Source: a virus. From it: a DNA stretch of 64,000 nucleotides. The position numbers were made by a program, and so were the translations under genes. Below the pieces are notes generated by a model, which was given only the letters and a program-made list of their open reading frames with translations, had not been told where the DNA came from and made no database searches. Below are positions 19,848-46,411 of the stretch, in pieces (position 1 is the stretch's first letter; each line of letters starts with the position of its first letter). Location of the stretch: positions 32,001 through 96,000 of the IMG/VR virus record IMGVR_UViG_3300013093_000001. The stretch is one strand, 5' to 3'.

Positions 19848-20858
19848 ATGTTCGAACCACCGGAAATAATTTCTGAGCAACTCTACGCTGGACCGGGTGC
19901 TGCTCCGATGTTGACGGCGGCGGCAGGCTGGCAGGGCACTGCGAACAACCTAGCTGGTACAGGTCAAGACTTCGCTCGTATTATCTCCCAAATCCCCTGG
20001 TCGGGACCAAGTTCAGAATCGATGCGCGCAACGGCAGCGTCTTACGCGACGTGGCTATTCGCGACAGCGGAACAAGCCGCGCAGACCGCTGCCTTGGCGC
20101 ACGCCGCCGCAACGGCCTATGAATTAGCACGCGCGACCGCCATACCACCGGAAGCTGTGACATGTAACAGAATGCAACTGGCAATACTGACGGCAACCAA
20201 CATCCTCGGCATGAACTCCGTTGCTATCGCAGCCACAGAATCCCAGTACGCAGAGATGTGGACACAAGATATAGCCGCTATGACAGCCTACAGCGCAACA
20301 TCTGCTGAGCTAACGAGCGCATTACCGAATTGGACTACGCCCCCCGCCGCAACGGCTCCACCATCAGCACCTGCTATTTGGACTTATTTACTCGGAGGTC
20401 AAACAATCCCACAGCTGTTTTGGACTACTTTCCAAGCCAATCTGAGCAGCGGACCATTTTCTTTACCGCTGCAACTCCTCAGCCTGTTTACAGTGCTATG
20501 GGCCACCGGCAGTCCCGACAGCCCTATCAATCAAATACTGGGGCTGGCCCAGAATCCGGTCATTGCGCCGCCAACATACCTAGCAGAGCCGTTGGCGACA
20601 GCGCCAACACCTCAAATACGCGCCAACATGGGCAGCGGCAATACTCTGGGACCGCTGCGGGTGCCTCCGACATGGGCACAACCGCCTAAGCAACTAGTTC
20701 CCCGACCCATTACCGTCAACACAGTGGGATCGGAACTAGAACCCTACCCGTTGGGACTGCCGATACTGACAGGTAGCGGCGGTACGACCACGCGGAAACC
20801 GTTACCCGAATACGGCAAGAGCTCGACCGTGATGGTCAAACACCCATATGGCGGCTAG
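19848..20858 (+). CDS. PPE family protein (SVP-type C-terminus)
   Basis: PPEIIS..YAGPG..M..AA.GW, WSGPSS, NR..L..L.ATN.LG.N..AIAATE.QYAEMWTQD and GPLRVPPTW. Confidence 0.9.
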   Translation: MFEPPEIISEQLYAGPGAAPMLTAAAGWQGTANNLAGTGQDFARIISQIPWSGPSSESMRATAASYATWLFATAEQAAQTAALAHAAATAYELARATAIPPEAVTCNRMQLAILTATNILGMNSVAIAATESQYAEMWTQDIAAMTAYSATSAELTSALPNWTTPPAATAPPSAPAIWTYLLGGQTIPQLFWTTFQANLSSGPFSLPLQLLSLFTVLWATGSPDSPINQILGLAQNPVIAPPTYLAEPLATAPTPQIRANMGSGNTLGPLRVPPTWAQPPKQLVPRPITVNTVGSELEPYPLGLPILTGSGGTTTRKPLPEYGKSSTVMVKHPYGG

Positions 20859-21301: not shown

Positions 21302-21822
21302 TACACGTCCCGTCTGAAGCTGTAGGCATCATAGGGCTTTCGGCCACACCACACGTCCGTCAGAGCTTGTGTGACGTTAAGGCCAGTTGCTTCGTCAATG
21401 GCCTGCCACTCAACGATGCAACGCGGTTCTCCATCAAGACCCAGCAGAACAGACTCCACCGGTTCCATAAGTGTCATGCGGAGTCGGTTATACCACCACG
21501 ACTTTTGCATCGTCAGGCGCATGAACCGCAAACCGTCATCAACACTGGCAAAAACGATGTTCCCGTTCGGCGTCATGTCAGGACTACCAGGGTAGTGTGC
21601 ACCACCTTGACAGGAGAACTGCGTTGCAATGCCAGACCGCCACACGGCGTCCAGCAGATCAACCATGCCTTCGTCAACATGGCCGTTGCTCGTCAATACT
21701 TGCTTATGAATACTCACTATCCTCCTTATCTGGGTCGGCCTCTGCCGACCGCGCACCCAGGCCAGGTAATGAACCTGACCTGGGCCTTCTTTCAGTTGTG
21801 GTAGTCGACGTGCACCAGCCAC
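21301..21822 (-). CDS. Hypothetical protein (start uncertain)
   Basis: VDEGM..L...W..GI.TQFSCQG phage motif. Confidence 0.5.
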   Translation of the reverse strand: MAGARRLPQLKEGPGQVHYLAWVRGRQRPTQIRRIVSIHKQVLTSNGHVDEGMVDLLDAVWRSGIATQFSCQGGAHYPGSPDMTPNGNIVFASVDDGLRFMRLTMQKSWWYNRLRMTLMEPVESVLLGLDGEPRCIVEWQAIDEATGLNVTQALTDVWCGRKPYDAYSFRRDV

Positions 21823-22268
21823 GTTGACGGGTCGAGCGAAGCCAGGAATTTCAAAAACTGCTCTTCAAATTCCGGTCCGCGTTCCCAGTCACCAATCACG
21901 GTTGACCCGCTACCCTCTGGGCCAAGCCACTTCGTGTGCCACACGCAATCAAGGTCCAGGTAACTGTAGACGTAGTCTATCGACTCTGCTACAAGGTCAC
22001 CGACGCGTGCACAGTCGGTAGCGCCAGCTTCCGCGACTTCATCGGGGAAACCGAAACTGCTGGGCTCAGACGGCAGACCGCTAACACAGTCGGGTTTCAA
22101 CCGCCACTCACCACCCCACCTGCCGCCAACAACCCACCAGTCCCATTCAGGATCACCTTCTGGGTCACATGAATCGTAGCCATACCGGGACATGCGTAGT
22201 TCCAACTCGGACCGCAAGTTATCCGGCTCAACATCTCCCGGTATGGCGACAACATGGCTATAGTGCAT
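21792..22268 (-). CDS. Hypothetical protein
   Basis: WDWWVVGGRW..LVHVDYH conserved phage motifs. Confidence 0.65.
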   Translation of the reverse strand: MHYSHVVAIPGDVEPDNLRSELELRMSRYGYDSCDPEGDPEWDWWVVGGRWGGEWRLKPDCVSGLPSEPSSFGFPDEVAEAGATDCARVGDLVAESIDYVYSYLDLDCVWHTKWLGPEGSGSTVIGDWERGPEFEEQFLKFLASLDPSTWLVHVDYHN

Positions 22269-31271: not shown

Positions 31272-31327
31272 TTCTCATAAACCTCCTCCTAACATCCCCG
31301 ACCCTGTGTCGGGGAAATCTGTGTGGG

Positions 31328-31444
31328 GAGGCGGCGGCGCAGGTACTGCGCCCGAGCCATGTAACCGGGCAAGGCAATCCTTGCTTCCATTGCCACCAAA
31401 AATGAATGAAAACGGTGGGATGGTGAGTTTAACGCCGCCGCCTC
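31328..31444 (-). ncRNA. Putative structured three-way-junction RNA, copy A
   Basis: Closing stem, TTAAACTCA, stem, AAGCAAGGA, stem, TACCTG; covaries with copies B and C; strand inferred. Confidence 0.6.
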
Positions 31445-31477
31445 AAGCCTCAAAAAGTTTGTGTGGAAAGGTGGTGG

Positions 31478-31598
31478 GGGGGCGGCGGCGCAGGTACTAC
31501 ACGCCCCGTAGTAAAAGGGCGCTTATTGGTAGTCCTTACTTTCCAATTTCCCACCAGCAAGGAACGAGAAATTGGTTGAGCTTAACGCCGCCGCCTCC
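31478..31598 (-). ncRNA. Putative structured three-way-junction RNA, copy B
   Basis: TTAAGCTCA..AAAGTAAGGA..TACCTG core with different stems. Confidence 0.6.
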
Positions 31599-31601
31599 AG
31601 C

Positions 31602-33541: not shown

Positions 33542-34177
33542 CTACCTTCTTTGCGCTGGGTCAACGTAGCGATCTAACAGTCGCCACCCGAAACCCTCAC
33601 ACGCGAAGGGACGGTCACCGATAATTACTAAATCGCCGACCGACAAACTGCGGTTCCCGTCGTCCCTGTATTTCCTACCCCACGCAAACGCAGGGTTGTC
33701 GCGGTTCAGTTCACCAAAAACTTTCCCCAGTAATCGAAACTCTGGTTCAAATTTCCACTGCAACCGCTCCGGTCCGCGCAACGTGGGAATGAAATCAGGC
33801 TCATCCCAACTGACCGCTAAGACGAGCTGGTCGCCTGGGCGGTGACCGTACATAAAACACTCGGTGTTTTGGTTCAAATAGACCCTCACTTGCCGGTGTC
33901 TCTGTACGCAGTCGGGACAAAGATCGTTACCTACAAGATTTTCGGCTTGTAGCCAACCATCAGTTTGCAACCCTTCCTGTATGACCGCGTCCCGGATTTT
34001 CTCATCTTCAGCGTAGCTATCTACACCCCACACGGCGTGACACTCATCGCATTCGATGAATGTCTCCCGTATTTTGTCTGTCAAGTCCAAGGGAAAATTC
34101 TCCCTCACACAGTCGGGTGGTAGATATGCTGTGCTCACGTCGGGCGGGTAACCCCAAAGCGCATCGCCTCGGGTCAT
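33542..34177 (-). CDS. Hypothetical protein
   Basis: C-terminal RSLSVGDLV..FACEGFGW (YodL-like) motif; start uncertain. Confidence 0.6.
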   Translation of the reverse strand: MTRGDALWGYPPDVSTAYLPPDCVRENFPLDLTDKIRETFIECDECHAVWGVDSYAEDEKIRDAVIQEGLQTDGWLQAENLVGNDLCPDCVQRHRQVRVYLNQNTECFMYGHRPGDQLVLAVSWDEPDFIPTLRGPERLQWKFEPEFRLLGKVFGELNRDNPAFAWGRKYRDDGNRSLSVGDLVIIGDRPFACEGFGWRLLDRYVDPAQRR

Positions 34178-34283
34178 TGCCGCCAACCCTCGTCAGCAGT
34201 CATCTTCTATCCTCCTTTACCAAAGTCCGGCTCCTTGCCGGACTCGCACCCGGTACGGTTCTGACACCGTACCGGGCCTGTGT

Positions 34284-36630: not shown

Positions 36631-36704
36631 TTTTCCTCCTCCAAGGTGGGCATGGCTATTTGCCACGCCTCGTGCCCCGGCCAGGTTCGACCCTGGCCGG
36701 GGCT

Positions 36705-36900
36705 AGGTGCGACGCAGGTACAGTACGCCAGAGGATAGCTGGCGGTCACTCGGGCCGCATCGCAACATGGCTATGCGCGACCTGAGTGGACTGTCCTTGC
36801 ATTCCCGCTCCAAAGGGAGCAATCTTACCGCCGAGAAATTGGGCACTCGGCCTCTGCGGCAAGCAAAAACCTTCGGGGGGTGAGTTTAACGTCGCTTCCT
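36705..36900 (-). ncRNA. Putative structured three-way-junction RNA, copy C (extended arms)
   Basis: GCGACG-TTAAACTCA..AATGCAAGGA-CAGT..ACTG-TACCTG-CGTCGC; fills a slot between two double-hairpin elements. Confidence 0.65.
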
Positions 36901-36964
36901 CTTTTGTGGTCGGCGTTCTTGCCGACCTCGTGTCCCAGGCAGGTTCGACCCTACCTGGGACTGC

Positions 36965-37795: not shown

Positions 37796-38251
37796 CTAAG
37801 CTTCAACCGACTGCGACTTCAACGCAGCAATCTGCTGCTGCAACCGCTCGATCTCAGCCACCGGGTCACCCATCATCTGGGTAAACGCCTGCTCAACCGC
37901 AGTCACAATCCGGTCGGCAGGGTTCAAGCGATAAATCAGGCCTTTTTCATAACCCGACTCACCCTTAATTCCGGCGTAAAGGTTGGTTCCTGCGCGGTTC
38001 CGCTTGACCACGGCCACTCGCCCGTCGTCCATGCGGTACTCACCCGGCTCTGTCACGCGCTCTGCGGCGGGTTTACCACCGGCAAAGGGCGCTTCTAGGG
38101 CCTTCGCAATCAAGGCGCTGGCCTGTTCAGCTGTCATTCCAACAGCTAAAAACTGGTCAATCGCCGACCGCAAGCCGTCTGGTACTTCTCGCTTGACCAG
38201 CAGGTCACCGAGAAAGCTCAGCTGCTTTTCAGTCGCCATTCTTATCGCCAT
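37796..38251 (-). CDS. Hypothetical protein
   Basis: ATEKQLSFL.DL..AS.LI..L N-terminal motif; true start after the element SD. Confidence 0.65.
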   Translation of the reverse strand: MAIRMATEKQLSFLGDLLVKREVPDGLRSAIDQFLAVGMTAEQASALIAKALEAPFAGGKPAAERVTEPGEYRMDDGRVAVVKRNRAGTNLYAGIKGESGYEKGLIYRLNPADRIVTAVEQAFTQMMGDPVAEIERLQQQIAALKSQSVEA

Positions 38252-38330
38252 GTTTCCTCCTCCATGGGTCCGACCCTGTGCCAGACCTCGTGTCCGGTGC
38301 GGTTTTGACACCGCACCGGACTCCCTAGCA

Positions 38331-38650
38331 ACCCAACATCGCTGTTGGGGGTGGGGCGGTAGGGGTTCCCTACCCACCCCAGTTTGGAGGTTAGAGGAAA
38401 TCACTATTCATTAGACCTGTCGGTGCCACATGCGACCAGCTTCGCGCTGGCCGGGTTTGCACCCTAGCGCCTTGTGTTCACTAGCGGTGCCTCTACGTGC
38501 GCGACCGCTGCTTCACTTTTGCCACCATCGTCCAAGTGCGCGACGGCGGCCACAAAGCACGCAGGCGCAAGGCTGCTCAGCCAGGTTGCGTGGACACCAC
38601 AGATATAGGTGTCCCGTAAAACCCGACCGGCAACTTTGCGCCTAAAACAA
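38331..38650 (-). ncRNA. Putative large structured ncRNA (~320 nt), copy 1
   Basis: Diverged duplicate at 43350-43694 with indels and compensatory changes; no conserved ORF. Confidence 0.7.
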
Positions 38651-39623
38651 GTATACCCAGGGGCCTGAGTGTTGCCTACCCCTAAGCACGACTAATTCTT
38701 TCTAACCCAAACCTGCTGGCGGCTGCCGGAAGGCTTTACCTTCCCCAGCCAGCCTCGTACCCGGTGTGGCTTCGACACCATACCGGGCCTCCTTACTTGT
38801 GCGTCCAGTCCCGGTAAAGCACCGCGAACAGGGTGCAAGCCATAACAATCATGGCCTCAACAGCGGGTGACATCATTTCTCCCGCTGGCTTTTCAGTCCC
38901 AAGCGTTGACGCACCCAGGCCAGACCTGGCGTTTCAGCCGGGGGCACATAATCCTGTGCGGGTTTAATCCCCTGCCAGACGCTCAACCCCATGTTGGGGT
39001 TCATGTATAGCATTTCTATCCTCCTTCTAGGTCGGCCTCGTGCCAACCTCGTGTCCCGCGTGGGTTCGACCCCACGCGGGACCACCACCTACTAGGAATT
39101 CTCCCAATTCCGGTAGCTCTTGTCTCGGCGTAACGCTTTCGCGTTTCGCTTCTTGCGCTGGTCTTGGTGGATACCAGCAGCGCCGGATCGTCGCAATTCA
39201 AGACGGGCTCGCAGTTGCTCCTCGCAGGCGCTCAGGTACTTGTCATCCACCAGTTGCAGATGACGCTTCATTATCATTATTTCCTCCTGTACCGGCTGGC
39301 TCTTTGCCAGCCTCGTACCCCGGCAGGTTCTGACACCCACCGGGGCCTGGGCCTTTATGGTCCTGCTAGAGCAGCACCAAATCTTCAGGCCACGCCTCAT
39401 CTTCACCGCCTGTGTCGAACTGGCCTGGATCCCATTCCAGGACAATGCCAATTCCGTTGGGGCCGTCCACCACCTCAACAACAGTTCCAATCATGGTAGG
39501 TGCACCGCAAGAGCGGACACGATCTCCCGGTTTGAACTTTTTACTCATTCCTCCTCCACTCTGGTCGGCCTCGTACCGACCTCGTACCCGGTATGGCTTC
39601 GACACCATACCGGGCCTCGTCAC

Positions 39624-39893
39624 TCAAGCAAAGTCTCGGTAGCGTTTTTCTGCTTCCACGACCGCTCGCGCGATCTTCGACGGTTCCAACCACTCCTGGT
39701 GACCGGACTTAGCTTCCGGCTGCTTCCAGTACCACGCCACGACCTCACTGTGCGTGTCTTCTGCTTTCCACCAGAACAAGCACGTTTCGTAGGTCAAGTC
39801 AGGTAACTCGACCGTACTCACCAAGACCGAACCAACGCTCTCCAGCGTGACGACTTCTCGTTCGTGGTAACGGGCGTCTTCTTCGTAGTCCAT
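39624..39893 (-). CDS. Small hypothetical protein
   Basis: VSTVEL...YETCLF motif; between elements. Confidence 0.6.
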   Translation of the reverse strand: MDYEEDARYHEREVVTLESVGSVLVSTVELPDLTYETCLFWWKAEDTHSEVVAWYWKQPEAKSGHQEWLEPSKIARAVVEAEKRYRDFA

Positions 39894-39969
39894 TTTCTCC
39901 TCCTAATCAGCTGACCGTTTGCCAGCTTTGCGCCCTGTGTGGTTTCGACACCACACAGGGCCATCTCAC

Positions 39970-40281
39970 TCAGTTGCGCCACCACGTTTCCCAGTCGTAC
40001 ATCTCACTGTCGCTCAGGAACCCGTCGCCATCCGGGTCGGTACCAAACCGGGCGAACTCAATGCGCTTCGCCGCTAGGGCGAACTGCAAGTTCTTCGACT
40101 CTCCAGCCGGGACCAAAAACGTCACATCCCACACGGAGAAATCTGTACCGGAACCGGTGTCGTAGCCGTGGTGATCGGCAATGATCTGCTTCAGGAACAC
40201 CCATTGGGGGTTTTCCCGTCCAGCGTCATCGCGCTCCGGGTAGGGCAGGTAAGCCTTGTACCGGTGCATTACTGTTGCCAT
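39970..40281 (-). CDS. Small hypothetical protein
   Basis: Between elements; SD. Confidence 0.55.
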   Translation of the reverse strand: MATVMHRYKAYLPYPERDDAGRENPQWVFLKQIIADHHGYDTGSGTDFSVWDVTFLVPAGESKNLQFALAAKRIEFARFGTDPDGDGFLSDSEMYDWETWWRN

Positions 40282-40359
40282 GTTTTCCTCCTCCAACGTG
40301 GTCCGGCCTTGTGCCGGACCTGCGTGCCCTGGCGGGTTCTGACACCCACCAGGGCTTTT

Positions 40360-40665
40360 CTAGCTGGTTGCCGCCTCAAACTCAGCGTTTAACTCAGCAA
40401 CCTTCTGCTTGACCGTCCCATCCAGCCACGCTTGCGCCAGTTCATCAATTTTCGGTACCCGGTAGGGCCAAATCTCCCTGAACTCGCTCGCCAGCTTGAA
40501 TTGCGCTGTCAAACACTCAGCCGTCATCTCCAACTTGCCGTCAAGTTCTTCTACTATAAACTTGACGAGCTGGGTTTCATTCTGACGGACGGCATCCAAT
40601 TTCCGCCAAGTGTTGAAGACGCGCTCTCGCGCTTTTTCTAATTTGGTCGGTGGACCACCAATCAT
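40360..40665 (-). CDS. Small hypothetical protein
   Basis: Between elements; SD. Confidence 0.55.
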   Translation of the reverse strand: MIGGPPTKLEKARERVFNTWRKLDAVRQNETQLVKFIVEELDGKLEMTAECLTAQFKLASEFREIWPYRVPKIDELAQAWLDGTVKQKVAELNAEFEAATS

Positions 40666-40736
40666 TTTTCCTCCTCCTTATCTAGCCACTAGTGGCTTCG
40701 TACCGGTGCAGGGTTCGACCCCCACACCGGTTCCTT

Positions 40737-41006
40737 TTACTGCGAGAACTGCGCGTGGAGCTCTCGGGCGTACTCGGGTATAGCTGCTTTCCACCATGTC
40801 TCATACCCAAGGTGTTGGGCAATTTGCTGCGCCAAGTGCAGCGCATCTTCCGGCGACAAGAACATGACCGCGTTGCTTCGGTCTGTTTTCGTTCCGGCCA
40901 GGTCAATGACGACCTTCGTCCCGTCTTCCGTGCGGTGTACGTCTCGCCGTAGCGCGACGTAGTGCATGTAGACGGTGAAGGCGCTGCTTTCGTGGTCTTG
41001 TTCCAT
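40737..41006 (-). CDS. Small hypothetical protein
   Basis: Between elements; SD. Confidence 0.55.
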   Translation of the reverse strand: MEQDHESSAFTVYMHYVALRRDVHRTEDGTKVVIDLAGTKTDRSNAVMFLSPEDALHLAQQIAQHLGYETWWKAAIPEYARELHAQFSQ

Positions 41007-41083
41007 TTTTCCTCCTCCAACATGGGTTCGGCTTCTTGCCGGACCTCGCGTCCCGGTCAGGTTCGACGCTGACCGGGACTCCC

Positions 41084-41329
41084 TCACACGACCGTGAAAT
41101 TCCCGGTCTTGGCTTTCACCTTCACGTTCGCGTACCAGCGCCGATCCCGGTAGGGGTCGGGGCCAACCACCACGTCGCTCGGTGTCAGCTCTGCAGCTTT
41201 CACAGTCCCACGGTTGCTGAACGCTGAGGTGTCGGTGAATGCCACCGGCTGCTCAGCCTCAACAGCGTCCTTCAACGCTTTCTTGGACGGGAAGTTACGT
41301 CCTCCTAGCGTGGCGTGGAAGTTGCTCAT
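41084..41329 (-). CDS. Small hypothetical protein
   Basis: FPSKKALKDAV..VVGPDPY.DRRWYANV conserved phage motif. Confidence 0.65.
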   Translation of the reverse strand: MSNFHATLGGRNFPSKKALKDAVEAEQPVAFTDTSAFSNRGTVKAAELTPSDVVVGPDPYRDRRWYANVKVKAKTGNFTVV

Positions 41330-41414
41330 TATTTTTCCTCCTCCAACATGGGTCCGGCCTTGTGCCGGACCCTGCGTGCCCCCGCCAGGTTCGACCCTGA
41401 CGGGGGCTTCTGTC

Positions 41415-41759
41415 CTACTGGACGTATCCGTTGTCAACACACTCCTGGCAGGTAAAAAACCCTGTCTTTAGGTTGTAGAACCCATCCCAGCCGGTGTCCT
41501 TCGCATTACAGGACCAGCAATCCGGGGCTGGCATGATTTCGGGCGCTTCGTCCTTGAATGCGTCCCACTCTTTGGGCGTCACCCCGCTGATGAGAAATTC
41601 TCTCTCATCAACACTCAGGTGTGGGAACGCGTCTTGCACGCACTCTCCCACGCCGCGCTCTCGCGCTTCCAGCCACGCTTCCATCGCGTGGGGTGCAACA
41701 TCAATGTCCATCTGGTTCACGTAACCAGTGATGATCGATGTCTTCTGGACTGTGACCAT
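41415..41759 (-). CDS. Hypothetical protein
   Basis: QDAFPHLS.DEREFLISGVTP.EW conserved phage motif. Confidence 0.65.
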   Translation of the reverse strand: MVTVQKTSIITGYVNQMDIDVAPHAMEAWLEARERGVGECVQDAFPHLSVDEREFLISGVTPKEWDAFKDEAPEIMPAPDCWSCNAKDTGWDGFYNLKTGFFTCQECVDNGYVQ

Positions 41760-41839
41760 TCTTTCCTCCTCCAACTTGGCTCGACCTCATGTCAAGCCTC
41801 GTACCCGGTGGTGGTTCGACCCACCACCGGGCCTTGTGG

Positions 41840-42058
41840 CTAGTGCACCAATTCGTTCGGCATCCAGCCTGGTTGACGGTCTGAGTAGTGTGACTCATCG
41901 TCAACCGCAGTAATCGTCGCTAACTGCATTCCGTCACCTTCGCTTAGCTTGCATATCGAAGCATTCGCGATTCCCTGCTCTTGCATCGCCAGCAAGGTCT
42001 TCAGGTTCCGTGTGGTCAGTTCAACGCGAAGTTCGTTTCCAACTGCGAACACCTTCAT
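41840..42058 (-). CDS. Small hypothetical protein
   Basis: ELTTRNL.TLL..D..HYSDR.PG motif. Confidence 0.6.
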   Translation of the reverse strand: MKVFAVGNELRVELTTRNLKTLLAMQEQGIANASICKLSEGDGMQLATITAVDDESHYSDRQPGWMPNELVH

Positions 42059-42140
42059 TTTTTCCTCCTCCAACTTGGCTTGGCCTCGTGCCAGCCTCGT
42101 ACCCCTGCCAGGTTCGACCCTGACAGGGGCTCCTTCCGCG

Positions 42141-42587
42141 TCAGCGGTAAAAACCATCACAATCGGTGTCATCTAACCCTAATACGTGGACGAATAGCTT
42201 CTCCCCACACATCAGGCATATCTGCTGGCTGTACTCTTCCAACAACTGATTTTCGACTGCCGAAGCCAGCTCTTCCCCAGACAGACCTTGTTCAGTAAAA
42301 CTGCTGAACAACTCGACACAGCGGGGTGCTACCCTCACTGCGTCAATGTGGAAGTCTGCTATCCAGTCCCAGTTCAGTTGTTTATCGTCACCGTGTGCTT
42401 TACTACTCGTTGACCCGGTGTGATACACATAATCCGACCAGCGGATGTATGTACCGGCCATCGGTGTACCAGAGAGTCTGTAGTGACGATCAACGTATGC
42501 CGGTTCGTGTGGCGGTTCTAATACCGTCTCAACGGTAATCAAAACCGACTCAACCGACAGGGCAGTTTGCAGCAACCGTGCGTCCAC
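42141..42587 (-). CDS. Hypothetical protein
   Basis: Between elements; GTG after SD. Confidence 0.5.
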   Translation of the reverse strand: MDARLLQTALSVESVLITVETVLEPPHEPAYVDRHYRLSGTPMAGTYIRWSDYVYHTGSTSSKAHGDDKQLNWDWIADFHIDAVRVAPRCVELFSSFTEQGLSGEELASAVENQLLEEYSQQICLMCGEKLFVHVLGLDDTDCDGFYR

Positions 42588-42912
42588 TGCTGTTTCCTCC
42601 TCCAACTTGGCTCGACCTCATGTCAAGCCTCGTACCCGGTACAGTTTCGAGGCTGTACCGGGCCTGTGCGCTACGCCAACCCGGCGCGGCGCAGTGCGTC
42701 CCGCATCGCGGGGTTGCGGTAGTGCGTACCCCGCACCGGGGCGGGACCGCTCGCCTTCGCAGGCATGGCGGCCGGAGTGGCCTCTGCGGCCACAACCGCG
42801 ACCAGCTTCCGGTTCACGTTGTATGCGTTCACTTTTTTCCTCCTCCAACATGGGCCTGACCTTTTGCCAAGCCTCGTACCCCGGCAGGTTCTGACACCCA
42901 CCGGGGCCTTCG

Positions 42913-43185
42913 TCACACGGCGACGATCTTCAATTCGCCTCGCGTGACCAATCGGTACATCGGGCGACACCCATCATCGGTCCGACACAGGGTATCAATG
43001 GCGCAACGAATGTCATCGACAAGCGTCTCAACTGGGTCATCACCCCTGCGCCAGTTCGGGTAGCGGAACACGTTCTTCATGTCCGCTTCGAACGCAGCAA
43101 TGTAACCAGTGCGTCCAAGAATCTCGTCGGCGTTCCGGGCAAGTGCAACCCAGGCCGCTTCGTCGTAAATCTCCGACATCCTCAT
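42913..43185 (-). CDS. Small hypothetical protein
   Basis: First protein-coding unit of the leftward array. Confidence 0.5.
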   Translation of the reverse strand: MRMSEIYDEAAWVALARNADEILGRTGYIAAFEADMKNVFRYPNWRRGDDPVETLVDDIRCAIDTLCRTDDGCRPMYRLVTRGELKIVAV

Positions 43186-43349
43186 GTGACAGCTCCAATC
43201 TGTCTCTAACTCGGTGGCCTCAACTGAGGTCACCGCCTCCGCTTCGTCAGCGGCAGGATGGTTGGTTGTGCAGCGCGGGGTAAATCTCCCAGCCGCGCTG
43301 CACAACCTCGTGGCCGGTGCGGTTTTGACACCGCACCGGCCTCCAGTAC

Positions 43350-43694
43350 ACCCAACATCGCTGTTGGGGCGGGGGTGGGCGGGGGCTCCCCACCCACCCC
43401 CTGTTTGGAGGTTAGAGGAAATCACTATGTATCAAACCTGTCGGTGCTACATGCGACCGGCTCTTGCCAGTCGGGTTTGCGCCCTAGCTCGTCGTGTCCA
43501 CTAGCAAGGCCTCTAACCGCGCACCTGCTGCTTCACTTTTGCCGACATCGCCCAAGTGCGCGACGGCGGCCACAACGAACAACGCAAAGAAGCCGGTCAA
43601 GGTAGCACCTACAGGGATGTACCCCTGTAGGTTGCGGACCCCTTAGATAAGGGTGTCCCTAAAACCCCGACCGGCAACTTTGCGCCTAAAACAA
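43350..43694 (-). ncRNA. Putative large structured ncRNA (~345 nt), copy 2
   Basis: Paralog of 38331-38650, located at the head of the leftward array. Confidence 0.7.
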
Positions 43695-44200
43695 ACGTAC
43701 CAACGGGCAGGAGCGACCACAACCCCCAATCTTTTCTGGTCACTCATTCTTTGGCGCGGGGTCGGCGCTGGCAGCGGCTGGTTGAGCGGCAATTCTTTCC
43801 GCTACCCAGGATGCTGGTTTCTTTCTCCACCAAGATTGAGTGACCGGAGCCGGTACCGGCTTCGGAGTGGCTGAGCGGAGCGACACTCGGAGCAAAAATC
43901 GGAGTGACATTCGGAGTAACTCTGATTGCGTGAGTTGATAGCGGCTCTGCACTAGGACTGCGCCCTAGCTTACTCGGCCCTGGCAGCCTCCGCGCTGTCC
44001 TCCGCGCTGTCCTCCAGCAGCCGCTCCCCAGCCACTCTGGGCAGTTGTGGCAGAAAAGATTGGGTGGCGTGAAGAGTAAACCCGTTGCACAGAACTATTG
44101 CCTGGTGTCAAGCTAGGTATTACGCTTGCCTTATGGCAAGCGTTACACGACACACCACCACGGTGGACAACGCAGCGCCAGGGACGGAGGTGACAACAAA

Positions 44201-44602
44201 ATGAGCAAACGCCAAAACGGCAAGGCACTGCCAATGAGCAGTGTCGCAGGCAAGGGTCACAAGCGAGCACCCCGCCTGTCGGCGAGGGTACCGGAGCACC
44301 TGCTAGCACCTAGCGAGAGGTCCACCGGCTCGCTGCGGTTGGACGACCCGGCACCACGCGAGATTAAGATCGTCGCGCCGCCGCAACCCGCCGTGGTTCC
44401 AAGCAAGGACCACAGCGCCGACGAGCGGCTGGCAGAGGGACGGGTCGGCAAGGACCGCCCCCTGCTTGAGTCGCTGGGTGTGGTAGACGGAGCGTTGTGG
44501 GTAGACGCCCAGTTTACCGCATTGCCCCGGTTCAGCTGGTCGTACCGCAAGGATGGTACAGCTGAGTACAAGCGCCGCGACCCGGAGCTTGGGTGGTACT
44601 GA
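44201..44602 (+). CDS. Hypothetical protein
   Basis: SD GGAGGTG; promoter-like TTGCCT-N17-TACGCT upstream; hairpin downstream. Confidence 0.55.
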   Translation: MSKRQNGKALPMSSVAGKGHKRAPRLSARVPEHLLAPSERSTGSLRLDDPAPREIKIVAPPQPAVVPSKDHSADERLAEGRVGKDRPLLESLGVVDGALWVDAQFTALPRFSWSYRKDGTAEYKRRDPELGWY

Positions 44603-44674: not shown

Positions 44675-44833
44675 ATGGCAACAGATGTTGACATAGACGA
44701 ATTGGAATACCGGCTACGCAAGATAGCAGAAGCTGGCCTGAGTTGGAGCAGGTTTGTTCAGGTAGCGCAGGGAAACGGCGACCTCACATACAAGCAAGCA
44801 CAGGAACTGCGCCAACGGATGCAGCACCGCTAA
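44675..44833 (+). CDS. 52-aa hypothetical protein
   Basis: SD AAAGGAGA, ORF MATDVDIDELEYRL... Confidence 0.5.
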   Translation: MATDVDIDELEYRLRKIAEAGLSWSRFVQVAQGNGDLTYKQAQELRQRMQHR

Positions 44834-45240: not shown

Positions 45241-45395
45241 GTTACTGGTCGGTAACTTACTGGCCGGTAACATGGTCATGTCGGTAAACCTGGTCAAGTT
45301 ACCCAACATTACCGACATGACCAACATGACCAACATGGGTAAGTTACCCAACATGACCAGCTTACACCCGTGTAACTTAGCGTAGCCTTACCTAA
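45241..45395. repeat. Cluster of short direct and inverted repeats (TTAC/GTAA, ACATGACC)
   Basis: e.g. ACATGACCA three times, AAGTTACCCAACAT twice, TTACTGGYCGGTAA twice. Confidence 0.7.
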
Positions 45396-45488
45396 CAACC
45401 CATAACGTCGTCCCTTACACCATTGCCTGGCCGACTGTCAATAGCTGGACAGTGTGACGTACAACACAAAATTGGTCGGCCTAAACCC

Positions 45489-45517
45489 TTGCGACGTGTG
45501 TCCAACTAAGGTAATTT
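45489..45517 (+). promoter_or_regulatory. Promoter TTGCGA-N17-TAATTT
   Basis: Same family as the other promoters; upstream of the 45560 ORF. Confidence 0.55.
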
Positions 45518-45559
45518 GGTACTTGTCAGGCAATACCAACCAAGTAGTAAGGACACAAA

Positions 45560-45922
45560 ATGGACACCAACACCAACACCGCCGCCGCCGCCGCCGCCGC
45601 CATTGGCAGCGTCGTCGCAACCCACGGTAACGTCGTCGTCGCCGCGCCGCGCCGGACCGCATGGGTCGTCGTCGGCAAGGGGTATGACGGTCCGACCGGA
45701 CCGTCCACCGGACCTGCCGACGGGTGGCAGACCGTCGGCGACACACACGTCCTGACCTACACCATGCGTCAGGTCAAGGCCGGTACGTGGGTCGCTACCA
45801 ACAAGGTCACGGGTCGCAGCGCAAAGGGTCTGACCCGCAGCGCCGCGTACGCTTGGTGTGTCCGCGACAACAAGGCGCGTCACGCGGCGGCGGTCGCCGC
45901 CGCTAACGCCGCAACGGCGTAG
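45560..45922 (+). CDS. Hypothetical protein
   Basis: SD TAAGGA, GC3 bias, followed by a 16-bp hairpin at ~45931-45965. Confidence 0.6.
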   Translation: MDTNTNTAAAAAAAIGSVVATHGNVVVAAPRRTAWVVVGKGYDGPTGPSTGPADGWQTVGDTHVLTYTMRQVKAGTWVATNKVTGRSAKGLTRSAAYAWCVRDNKARHAAAVAAANAATA

Positions 45923-46411
45923 CGGCCACACCGTACCCCACCCGCGACACGCGGGTGGGGTACGGTTGCGCGTGGGCGGCTGGTCCCCCCGACAAGGTTA
46001 CCCGCCAGTAACTTACGCCGGCGTAAGTTACATCCGCCCCCCTCCGCCCAAAGTCTGGGGGGCCGAGGGGGGGCGGGACGGAGGTGGTTCTAACTACCCC
46101 CGCAATCTTTGAAGACCGTTTGGGCGGCACGTATCAGTTCTTTCCCATGTAATCAATTTTCAGATGTACCCTTGTTCTGTGTCCCAGAAGGGTGCTGATG
46201 CGACATGAGGTTGTTCCTGCGGGTTTGCGGTTTCACCGTCGTGGAGTTAGCTTTGGAGTCGTCTGAGTCGGTCCGTGACGAAGGGCCGCAGTTCGCTGGT
46301 GGCGGTCAGTCGGGTTGTTTGGAGCGAGATTTGTCGCCGTTGAGTCCTGATGATCGGTATGACTGGGAAGTTGAAGATCGACAGTCTTTCGGGTTTCACT
46401 AGGAGATTATT

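What the first reader, a model, noticed from the sequence alone, without database searches (positions are those of the whole stretch)
38331..43694. Two diverged copies of a ~320-345 nt structured RNA occupy gene slots (38331-38650 and 43350-43694)
Seen: the copies share blocks (TTGTTTTAGGCGCAAAGTTGCCGGTCGGG, GTGGCCGCCGTCGCGCACTTGG, GGCAAAAGTGAAGCAG, ATAGTGATTTCCTCTAACCTCCAAAC) but differ by indels and compensatory changes. One example is CGGCCAGC/GCUGGUCG versus CGACUGGC/GCCGGUCG. Long-range complements GUCGG/CCGAC and UAGAGG/CCUCUA exist in both, and no ORF is conserved. Both copies are followed by a double-hairpin element with the same hairpin-1 core. I do not recognise it as tmRNA, RNase P, 6S/Ms1 or an intron. 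Inference: a large phage ncRNA, possibly catalytic or a protein decoy.
Basis: partly seen in the sequence, partly recalled or inferred. Interest (0 to 1): 0.82.

Follow-up and report, generated by a model that had tools for sequence, protein, structure and literature searches.

The report
Paired structured RNA genes in mycobacteriophage
A 114-kb mycobacteriophage-like genome carries two diverged copies of a roughly 320-nt, strongly folded, non-coding RNA gene with no known relatives; it looks real, but its function is only guessed because no other phage carrying it could be found.

Summary
Two paralogous non-coding elements lie on the minus strand: A at 38331-38655 and B at 43350-43699. They are 76% identical, and B carries a 26-28 nt extra hairpin.

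**Evidence that it is a structured RNA**
- No reading frame is conserved in any of the six frames.
- Both copies fold far better than shuffles on the minus strand (z about -8 and -9), and better than on the plus strand.
- A shared structure of 93 pairs is kept in both copies. It has 9 two-sided compensatory changes, against 0-1 in slid controls.
- The structure conservation index is 0.81, against 0.63±0.04 for column shuffles and 0.61 for the plus strand.
- Differences are clustered: three invariant runs of 24 nt or more (P=0.0005).

**Anatomy and position**
- Each copy has a -10-like hexamer 7 nt before the conserved block and ends in two GC hairpins.
- B sits at the head of a ~23-kb leftward array of tiny genes. 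A lies 5 kb inside that array.

**Relatives**
- There is no hit in Rfam, 50,697 phage records, plasmids, IMG/VR, JGI metagenomes or GTDB genomes.
- The nearest relatives by large terminase subunit (TerL) lack it, so covariation across species could not be tested.

**Function (inferred)**
- It is probably a stable early RNA, a positional analogue of the L5/D29 Pleft RNA.
- Its invariant C/U-rich 3' tail is antisense to the array's consensus ribosome-binding site, which suggests P1 c4-like masking of those sites. This is inference only.

I rate it a candidate new RNA family of moderate interest.

The parts
38650..38678 (-). Copy A promoter-like site, TAGGCA-17-TATACT. The -10 ends 1 nt before the conserved block begins.
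   Evidence: 9 of 12 match; one of only 2 sites in 6.4 kb; alignment.
38382..38648 (-). Copy A RNA body. It holds a 5' long hairpin domain (P1/P2) and a core of P3 enclosing P4 and P5, then P6 with a GCAA loop, P7 and the 3' tail.
38382..38407 (-). Copy A invariant 26-nt tail AUAGUGAUUUCCUCUAACCUCCAAAC. It is antisense to the array's consensus ribosome-binding region.
38331..38381 (-). Copy A 3' hairpins: a 13-bp GC-rich hairpin, then CCAACA-GCGA-UGUUGG with a GNRA-type loop. No U tract follows.
38292..38321 (-). Hairpin-1 of the double-hairpin element after copy A. It is identical in B and is still part of the duplicated unit.
43694..43722 (-). Copy B promoter-like site, TTGTGG-17-TACGTT. It is in register with the site of copy A.
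   Evidence: Read. It falls below the threshold of the scan.
43403..43692 (-). Copy B RNA body, with the same domains as copy A.
43604..43635 (-). B-specific extra hairpin inside the 5' domain. Its 3' half is complementary to the conserved block GUAGCACCGACAGG.
   Evidence: (I5: 14 nt, 93% complementary).
43403..43428 (-). Copy B invariant 26-nt tail, identical to that of A.
43350..43402 (-). Copy B 3' hairpins. The first shows compensatory changes relative to A; the second is identical.
   Evidence: helix 12: 2 two-sided and 2 one-sided changes.
43307..43346 (-). Hairpin-1 after copy B, with the same core as in A.
43723..44200 (.). Divergent non-coding control region upstream of copy B, holding ACTCCGA/GCTCCG repeats and a tandem GGACAGCGCGGAGG. 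The first rightward gene starts at 44201, so B is the first element of the leftward array.
   Evidence: frame check.

Best explanation
These are two paralogous genes for a highly structured non-coding RNA read from the minus strand. The body is about 270 nt, or 320-345 nt with its two 3' hairpins. Each copy carries its own SigA-type -10-like hexamer just upstream. Copy B is the first thing transcribed in a ~23-kb leftward array of about 45 tiny genes, and copy A sits 5 kb inside the array. The RNA is probably an abundant, stable early transcript, either terminated or processed after its GC hairpins. That would make it a positional analogue of the non-coding RNA made from Pleft in mycobacteriophages L5 and D29. 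The most likely mode of action is base pairing. The invariant C/U-rich 3' tail (AUUUCCUC-UAA-CCUCCAAAC) is two tandem antisense copies of the array's own near-identical ribosome-binding region (GUUGGAGG / GAGGAAAU). The RNA could therefore mask the Shine-Dalgarno (SD) and start regions of the array's mRNAs and tune or shut off their translation, as the leader-derived c4 RNA of P1/P7 does for icd-ant. Shown: the duplication, the lack of coding, the strand-specific conserved fold, the clustered invariance and the tail-to-ribosome-binding-site complementarity. Inferred: transcription start and end, stability, and the whole trans-acting mechanism. My odds are about 0.8 that it is a functional structured RNA on the minus strand and about 0.3 that masking of ribosome-binding sites is its job.
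For: - **Folding:** minus-strand MFE is -160 and -184 kcal/mol, z -7.9 and -9.0. The plus strand gives -130 and -158, z -2.3 and -6.2. Neighbouring genes give z -1.2 to -3.8.
- **Shared structure:** consensus fold -138 kcal/mol against -79±6 for column shuffles. The structure conservation index (SCI) is 0.81 against 0.63±0.04, and 0.61 on the plus strand.
- **Compensatory changes:** 93 pairs are kept in both copies, with 9 two-sided and 10 one-sided changes and none broken. Slid controls give 0-1 two-sided changes.
- **Clustered invariance:** three invariant runs of 24 nt or more, P=0.0005.
- **Not coding:** no conserved ORF.
- **Promoter-like sites:** -10-like TATACT and TACGTT in register in both copies. 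Sequence conservation jumps to 100% directly downstream of them.
- **Unit of duplication:** the downstream genes of A and B are unrelated, so the duplicated unit is the RNA module itself.
- **Tail:** the tail windows are the best pairing partners of the 44 array translation-initiation regions (TIRs) along the whole RNA, in both copies. Mean duplex energy is -15.2 against -10.25±1.65 for shuffled tails, and 3 of 400 shuffles are as good.
- **Precedent:** L5, D29 and StarStuff make a ~500-nt abundant, stable, ORF-free RNA directly downstream of the early promoter Pleft (PMC5712189).
Against: - There are only two sequences, from one genome. The consensus structure was derived from these same two sequences, and my alignment of the 5' domain was adjusted by hand, so the covariation counts are biased upward.
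- No orthologue was found, and the nearest TerL relatives lack the RNA.
- There are no expression data.
- Neither copy is followed by a U tract, so a discrete 3' end is not predicted.
- The B promoter-like site matches only 7 of 12 positions.
- The tail is only 0.5-0.6 unpaired in the ensemble. It is also complementary to the invariant P5 loop UAGAGG, so its composition may serve an internal contact rather than mRNA pairing.
- The tail-to-TIR link was noticed after looking. It could also be a relic of an inverted cassette junction: on the plus strand the locus reads two hairpins followed by an SD-like motif.
Confidence: 0.35

Rival explanations
1. It is a cis-acting leader. The structured RNA stays attached to the long early transcript, or acts on the polymerase that made it. 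It would serve as a 5' stabiliser against RNase J/E, as a processing platform, or as a put-like processive antiterminator that lets RNA polymerase pass the ~45 GC-rich intergenic hairpins.
For: B lies directly behind the divergent control region at the head of the array. Both copies follow promoter-like sites. No U-tract terminator follows either copy, so read-through into the next gene is expected. The array is punctuated by 26 or more strong hairpins.
Against: The intergenic hairpins lack U tracts and so are not obvious terminators needing antitermination. At ~300 nt the RNA is far larger than known put or nut elements (own knowledge). The invariant single-stranded blocks and the anti-ribosome-binding-site tail have no role in this model.
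Confidence: 0.2
2. It is a protein-binding RNA: a decoy, sponge or scaffold for a host or phage factor such as RNA polymerase, the ribosome, an RNase or a defence protein. This is in the manner of 6S/Ms1 or of the host-toxic L5 Pleft RNA.
For: The RNA has a large multi-branched fold. Its invariant, mostly unpaired blocks include three AGUGA/AGUGG motifs and an A-rich junction. It also has GNRA-type loops. The L5 right-end RNA region is toxic to M. smegmatis by an unknown mechanism (PMC5712189).
Against: There is no similarity to any Rfam family, 6S included. The fold is branched, not the rod with a central bubble of 6S. No partner gene is evident: the neighbours are ORFans and no reverse transcriptase or nuclease appeared among the ORFs scanned.
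Confidence: 0.2
3. There is no RNA function. It would be a duplicated DNA-level element, for example an inverted and decayed cassette junction or pseudogene, a recombination or mobile-element relic, or a regulatory DNA region. The structure would be a by-product of GC-rich palindromes.
For: On the plus strand the 3' part reads two hairpins followed by an SD-like GGAGGUUAGAGGAAA. That is the same layout as the array's junctions in the opposite orientation. The direct repeats are 5 kb apart. The element is absent from relatives.
Against: Palindromes fold equally on both strands, but here the minus strand is 26-30 kcal/mol more stable. The plus-strand SCI equals the shuffle null. G-U to G-C and U-A to U-G changes are tolerated only in the minus-strand reading. 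Clustered invariance argues for selection. No terminal inverted repeat is conserved in both copies.
Confidence: 0.1
4. It encodes a small protein on either strand.
For: Antisense ORFs of 71 aa (A) and 76-115 aa (B) exist.
Against: These ORFs are in different frames with different starts and ends, and share only a 29-aa stretch, as expected from 76-84% DNA identity. Eight 1-nt indels separate the copies. No SD precedes them. The RNA-sense frames carry 3-6 stops.
Confidence: 0.02

Closest known systems
Pleft-proximal non-coding RNA of cluster A mycobacteriophages (L5, D29, StarStuff; PMC5712189)
   Same: Both are actinophage RNAs and free of ORFs. Both span several hundred nucleotides and sit directly downstream of the early leftward promoter, ahead of a run of small early genes. 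The function of both is unknown.
   Different: No sequence or structure similarity was found: the covariance model R1 scores 3.7 bits or less on the L5 right end, and blastn finds nothing. Here there are two diverged copies, one of them internal to the operon. Expression, stability and toxicity are shown for L5 and untested here.
c4 antisense RNA of phages P1/P7 and CI RNA of P4 (own knowledge; Rfam C4 family)
   Same: In both cases an RNA encoded in the leader of an operon carries sequences complementary to ribosome-binding regions further down the same operon.
   Different: c4 is ~77 nt and has one target; this RNA is ~300 nt with potentially ~45 near-identical targets. There is no Rfam hit. 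Processing and repression are not shown here.
Large structured RNAs associated with phages (GOLLD, ROOL) and other ornate RNAs (OLE, HEARO, raiA)
   Same: Large size, a complex multi-helix fold, phage context and unknown function.
   Different: None of these families matches, even at E up to 10. This RNA is smaller and is known from a single genome.
6S RNA / mycobacterial Ms1
   Same: A similar length to Ms1 (~300 nt), high structure and an actinobacterial setting.
   Different: There is no match to the Rfam 6S families. The predicted fold is branched, not a rod with a central bubble. Similarity to Ms1 itself could not be tested, because no host genome handle was obtainable.
T4 RegA/RegB early-gene shut-off (own knowledge)
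   Same: If the tail model is right, both are phage devices that target the SD regions of the phage's own early mRNAs.
   Different: RegA and RegB are proteins. The RNA-based version proposed here is hypothetical.

Membership tests
Any Rfam 15 family (tmRNA, RNase P, 6S, group I/II introns, C4, GOLLD, ROOL, HEARO, OLE, raiA, riboswitches) | Covariance-model match at or near the family's gathering score | tested here: not met
   There are 0 matches at gathering score in the whole window. At E up to 10 over 38000-44200 only chance hits of 13-23 bits appear, none covering the RNA body. ARAGORN finds no tRNA or tmRNA.
L5/D29-type Pleft non-coding RNA | ORF-free region immediately downstream of the early leftward promoter | tested here: inconclusive
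   Copy B is the first element after the divergent control region and has no conserved ORF. The promoter itself is only a consensus-like match.
L5/D29-type Pleft non-coding RNA | Sequence or structure homology to the L5 right-end RNA | tested here: not met
   R1 with filters off on L5 50300-52297 gives a best score of 3.7 bits at E 0.46. blastn against 50,697 phage records finds nothing.
L5/D29-type Pleft non-coding RNA | Abundant, stable early transcript | not testable with these tools
   No expression data exist for this metagenomic phage.
P1/P7 c4-type leader-derived antisense RNA | Complementarity to ribosome-binding region(s) downstream in the same operon | tested here: met
   The tail is the best window for pairing with array translation-initiation regions (TIRs) in both copies. 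Mean duplex energy is -15.2 against -10.25±1.65 kcal/mol, and 3 of 400 shuffles are as good.
P1/P7 c4-type leader-derived antisense RNA | Homology to C4 RNA, size ~77 nt, RNase P processing | tested here: not met
   There is no Rfam C4 hit and the size is ~300 nt. Processing is not testable.
Mycobacteriophage mobile elements (MPME/MITE) | Terminal inverted repeats at the unit's ends, present in each copy | tested here: not met
   All inverted repeats found are internal stems. The only flanking pair is in B alone (11 of 14 nt) and has no counterpart in A.
Diversity-generating retroelement TR/VR pair | Differences confined to adenines of one copy; reverse transcriptase nearby | tested here: not met
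   Of the 55 substitutions, only 16 fall at A-copy adenines and 13 at B-copy adenines, and there are 10 indels. No reverse transcriptase appeared among the ORFs scanned.
Gene-specific cis-regulatory leader (riboswitch-like) | Association with the same downstream gene family | tested here: not met
   The downstream proteins (151 aa and 90 aa) share no similarity.
Mycobacterial Ms1 | Sequence or structure similarity to host Ms1 | not tested
   No Mycobacterium genome handle could be obtained; both genome-contig scans returned nothing.

The most novel reading that the evidence does not exclude
This would be a phage-encoded ~300-nt riboregulator whose tandem antisense modules pair with the near-identical ribosome-binding sites of ~45 early genes. 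It would give one RNA global control of a whole early gene array, an RNA counterpart of T4 RegA/RegB. An internal SD-like loop (UAGAGG) may gate the tail.
Probability: 0.25. Interest if true: 0.8.

Novelty: new variant of a known kind. Interest (0 to 1): 0.55.

Why it matters
Mycobacteriophages are used in therapy and as genetic tools. The one well-documented early non-coding RNA in them, the L5/D29 Pleft RNA, is abundant and toxic to the host, and it remains unexplained. A second, unrelated and much more clearly structured RNA in the same genomic position would suggest that 'an RNA first, then the early genes' is a general design in these phages. This one also comes with a concrete, testable handle: a tail antisense to the phage's own ribosome-binding sites. 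If that mechanism holds, it would be a new way for a phage to time a whole gene array with a single RNA. If it fails, the locus is still a candidate new family of large structured RNA.

Tried and rejected
**Homologue hunts, all negative**
- Rfam at gathering score and at E up to 10.
- blastn against phage records with both copies, E up to 10, and against plasmids.
- Exact and gapped block patterns in IMG/VR. The 29+2 k-mer hits were chance matches: model R1 found nothing in them.
- A 20-mer in JGI metagenomes gave 6 chance hits, none matching R1.
- A 19-mer of the tail in GTDB genomes found nothing.
- R1 on the large terminase subunit (TerL) relatives G001-G004 and on 11 TerL loci.
- The double-hairpin pattern in IMG/VR gave 1 chance hit.
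- Neighbouring proteins as anchors found nothing useful.

The five Logan/ENA contigs that carry the identical flanking protein could therefore not be read.

**Readings considered and rejected**
- Protein-coding.
- MITE/MPME.
- DGR TR/VR pair.
- Gene-specific riboswitch.
- tRNA or tmRNA.
- An RNA anti-CRISPR mimic. The plus strand shares a 13-nt stretch (CCCUAAAACCCCGA) with my recollection of the M. tuberculosis CRISPR repeat. However, copy A does not keep it and the repeat's stem is absent. I dropped it as a coincidence; it rests on memory only.


Full report
**Setting.** The window is bases 32001-96000 of a 113,905-bp IMG/VR virus record rated 100% complete. The phage looks like a mycobacteriophage:
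- It encodes a PPE-family protein (PF00823, E 3e-47) and an Rv2525c-like lysin.
- Its large terminase subunit (TerL) is closest, at 54-57% identity, to Mycobacterium phages Nadezda, Typha and Bipper and to M. abscessus prophages.

From about 44200 down to about 21300 the minus strand carries some 45 tiny genes. Nearly all are preceded by the same ribosome-binding region (…UUGGAGGAGGAAA-N-AUG). They are separated by a two-hairpin element present in 26 or more copies. The first rightward gene starts at 44201. The interval 43723-44200 is a repeat-rich divergent control region.

**The observation.** The two copies are real.
- Copy A (38331-38655) and copy B (43350-43699) are the only two matches in the genome, at 76% identity and E 3e-67.
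- The four quoted blocks are identical in both copies.
- The copies differ by 55 substitutions (36 of them transitions) and 10 indel events. Eight of these are single-base, and one is a 26-28 nt extra hairpin in B.
- Similarity starts about 50-60 nt upstream of the conserved block. It ends after hairpin-1 of the following double hairpin, which is identical in both copies. Hairpin-2 and the downstream genes are unrelated.
- The duplicated unit is therefore an RNA-sized module, not a gene with its leader.

**Not a protein gene, mobile element or known RNA.**
- RNA-sense frames carry 3-6 stops.
- The antisense ORFs (71 aa in A, up to 115 aa in B) differ in frame, start and end, and share only a 29-residue stretch.
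- No terminal inverted repeat is common to both copies.
- The differences show no adenine bias.
- Rfam gives nothing at gathering score, and only chance hits of 13-23 bits at E up to 10.
- ARAGORN finds nothing.

**Evidence for a minus-strand structured RNA.**
- The tool's own folds give -160.2 kcal/mol (z -6.3) for A and -184.4 (z -10.1) for B.
- In my strand comparison the minus strand gives z -7.9 and -9.0. The plus strand gives z -2.3 and -6.2 and is 26-30 kcal/mol weaker. Five neighbouring genes give z -1.2 to -3.8.
- On a partly hand-adjusted alignment the consensus fold is -138.2 kcal/mol, against -79.4±5.9 for 150 column shuffles (best -94.4).
- The structure conservation index (SCI) is 0.81, against 0.63±0.04 for shuffles (maximum 0.72). 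The reverse complement gives -87.7 kcal/mol and 0.61, which is the null value.
- On the untouched MAFFT alignment, all 93 consensus pairs are standard pairs in both copies, and 9 pairs changed on both sides. They lie in helices P2, P3, P5 and P7, the terminator-like hairpin and one short three-pair helix.
- A further 10 pairs changed on one side through G-U. Sliding the 3' partners by 1-3 columns gives 0-1 two-sided changes and 29-48% pairing.
- Differences are clustered. The invariant runs are 27, 26 and 24 nt long, and three runs of 24 nt or more arise in 0.05% of random placements.

There are caveats:
- The structure was derived from these same two sequences.
- Two paralogues are far too few for a proper covariation test.
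- The long-range 5'/3' helices never vary.
- The invariant 5' block has at least three possible partners. These are the variable 3' strand of P1, AAACCCGRCYRGC in the core, and CCGAC.

**Anatomy, in RNA sense.**
1. A -10-like hexamer (TATACT in A, TACGTT in B) lies in register in both copies, one base before the conserved block. A also has TAGGCA 17 nt upstream, and the promoter scan picked this site up.
2. The invariant 5' block GUUUUAGGCGCAAAGUUGCCGGUCGGG follows.
3. A long 5' hairpin domain comes next. B has an extra arm here, which makes a three-way junction.
4. The core has P3 enclosing P4 and P5, joined by the invariant A-rich GGCAAAAGUGAAGCAG. After that come P6 with a GCAA loop, P7, and the invariant GCACCGACAGGU.
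5. The invariant 26-nt tail AUAGUGAUUUCCUCUAACCUCCAAAC follows the core.
6. The RNA ends in a 13-bp GC-rich hairpin and a second hairpin with a GCGA loop. Neither is followed by a U tract.

**Homologues.** Every route I had came back empty. The routes are listed under 'tried and rejected'.
- The nearest TerL relative long enough to cover the region is G001, at 77% TerL identity. It keeps a homologue of the 148-aa array gene but has neither the RNA nor the double hairpins. An ordinary divergent promoter region sits in the equivalent place.
- G002 (97 kb, 65% GC, TerL 61% identical) also lacks both.
- The flanking 151-aa protein occurs, 100% identical, on five Logan/ENA contigs.

As far as these data reach, the RNA is confined to this phage lineage.

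**Mechanism.**
- *Position.* Copy B occupies the position of the abundant, stable, ORF-free RNA that L5, D29 and StarStuff make from Pleft ahead of their early genes. The function of that RNA is unknown, and its region is toxic to M. smegmatis (PMC5712189). There is no detectable homology between the two.
- *Tail and ribosome-binding sites.* The most specific clue is the tail. Its reverse complement, GUUUGGAGG-UUA-GAGGAAAU, reads like two of the array's own ribosome-binding regions in tandem. UUGGAGG occurs in 15 of the 44 array translation-initiation regions (TIRs), and GAGGAAA in 27.
- *Strength of that pairing.* Along the whole RNA, the tail windows pair best with these regions in both copies. 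The tail's mean duplex energy of -15.2 kcal/mol is matched by only 3 of 400 composition-matched shuffles, whose mean is -10.25±1.65.
- *Known parallels.* This is the logic of the P1/P7 c4 RNA. It also recalls T4 RegA/RegB, which act on the SD regions of T4's own early mRNAs (both from my own knowledge).
- *Points against the tail model.* The tail is only about half accessible in the predicted ensemble. It can pair with the invariant P5 loop UAGAGG. I saw the link only after looking. On the plus strand the same sequence, preceded by two hairpins, looks like an inverted cassette junction.

I put about 0.8 on 'functional minus-strand structured RNA' and about 0.3 on masking of ribosome-binding sites. 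The rivals are:
- a cis-acting leader role (stabiliser, processing platform or antiterminator);
- a protein-binding decoy or scaffold role;
- a functionless DNA duplicate, which is much less likely;
- a small protein, which is less likely still.

**Verdict.** Its core reading, a large phage non-coding RNA unknown to Rfam, is supported as far as sequence analysis allows. The 'catalytic or decoy' suggestion is untested. This is a candidate new RNA family in a known genomic niche. Interest is moderate. The structure signal is strong for a pair of sequences, but there are only two sequences from one uncultured phage, no expression data and no orthologues.

Noticed in passing
window 21300-44200, minus strand: The intergenic two-hairpin element occurs in 26 or more copies. 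Its stems covary and hairpin-1 has a conserved loop (plus-strand TTCGAC/TCTGAC). It is always followed by the same long SD (UUGGAGGAGGAAA). It is absent from the TerL relatives G001 and G002, and a pattern scan of IMG/VR gave only one chance hit.
   Followed up: partly
window 38793-38876, minus strand: A 27-codon ORF lies directly upstream of copy A. It encodes a hydrophobic peptide with a charged end (MMSPAVEAMIVMACTLFAVLYRDWTHK), resembling a small membrane peptide or type I toxin. Its start overlaps the end of a 46-codon ORF.
   Followed up: no
window 43723-44200: This divergent control region holds six ACTCCGA/GCTCCG-type repeats (about 43860-43945) and a tandem GGACAGCGCGGAGG (43985-44015). 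They are candidate operator sites between the leftward array and the rightward genes at 44201-44602 and 44675-44833.
   Followed up: no
window 45250-46100: This stretch is rich in repeats. It holds 9-bp periodic CATGTTGGT/GTAACTTAC repeats, GCCGAGGTGG triplets, a GTAACTTACGCCGGCGTAAGTTAC palindrome and C-run/G-run inverted repeats near 46040-46090, where GC skew changes sign. It is a candidate origin or packaging region.
   Followed up: no
window 43604-43635 versus 43437-43450: The B-specific inserted hairpin is 93% complementary over 14 nt to the conserved block GUAGCACCGACAGG of the same RNA. The insertion may have arisen by templated copying. It offers B an alternative long-range pairing that A lacks.
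   Followed up: partly
window 38619-38631 with 38446-38458; 43664-43676 with 43467-43479: The invariant 5' block GCCGGUCGGGUUU can also pair with AAACCCGRCYRGC, which is the 5' strand of P7 plus P6. The three differences between the copies in that partner all keep or improve this pairing. P7 and this helix are mutually exclusive, so this may be a conformational switch.
   Followed up: partly
window 36631-36964, 31272-31601, 34091-34283, 21718-22257: Other gene-free gaps in the array also fold much better than shuffles (z -5.8 to -7.1). Two of them hold the three-way-junction motif noted by other first-stage readers. The array seems to carry several RNA-only slots.
   Followed up: partly
window 19848-20858, plus strand: The phage carries a PPE-family protein gene (PF00823, E 3e-47, with a PPE-SVP C-terminal region). 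This family is otherwise typical of mycobacterial chromosomes.
   Followed up: no
G000 ends: IMG/VR labels the record as having direct terminal repeats. However, the first and last 50-2000 bases of the sequence as held are not identical, so the repeat may have been trimmed.
   Followed up: no
L050 14655-14837 (G001): The relative G001 has, at the equivalent divergent junction, two copies of CCAGC(C/G)CGCTGGCATATA(A/C). These look like operator-plus-promoter repeats. It has no leader RNA there.
   Followed up: no
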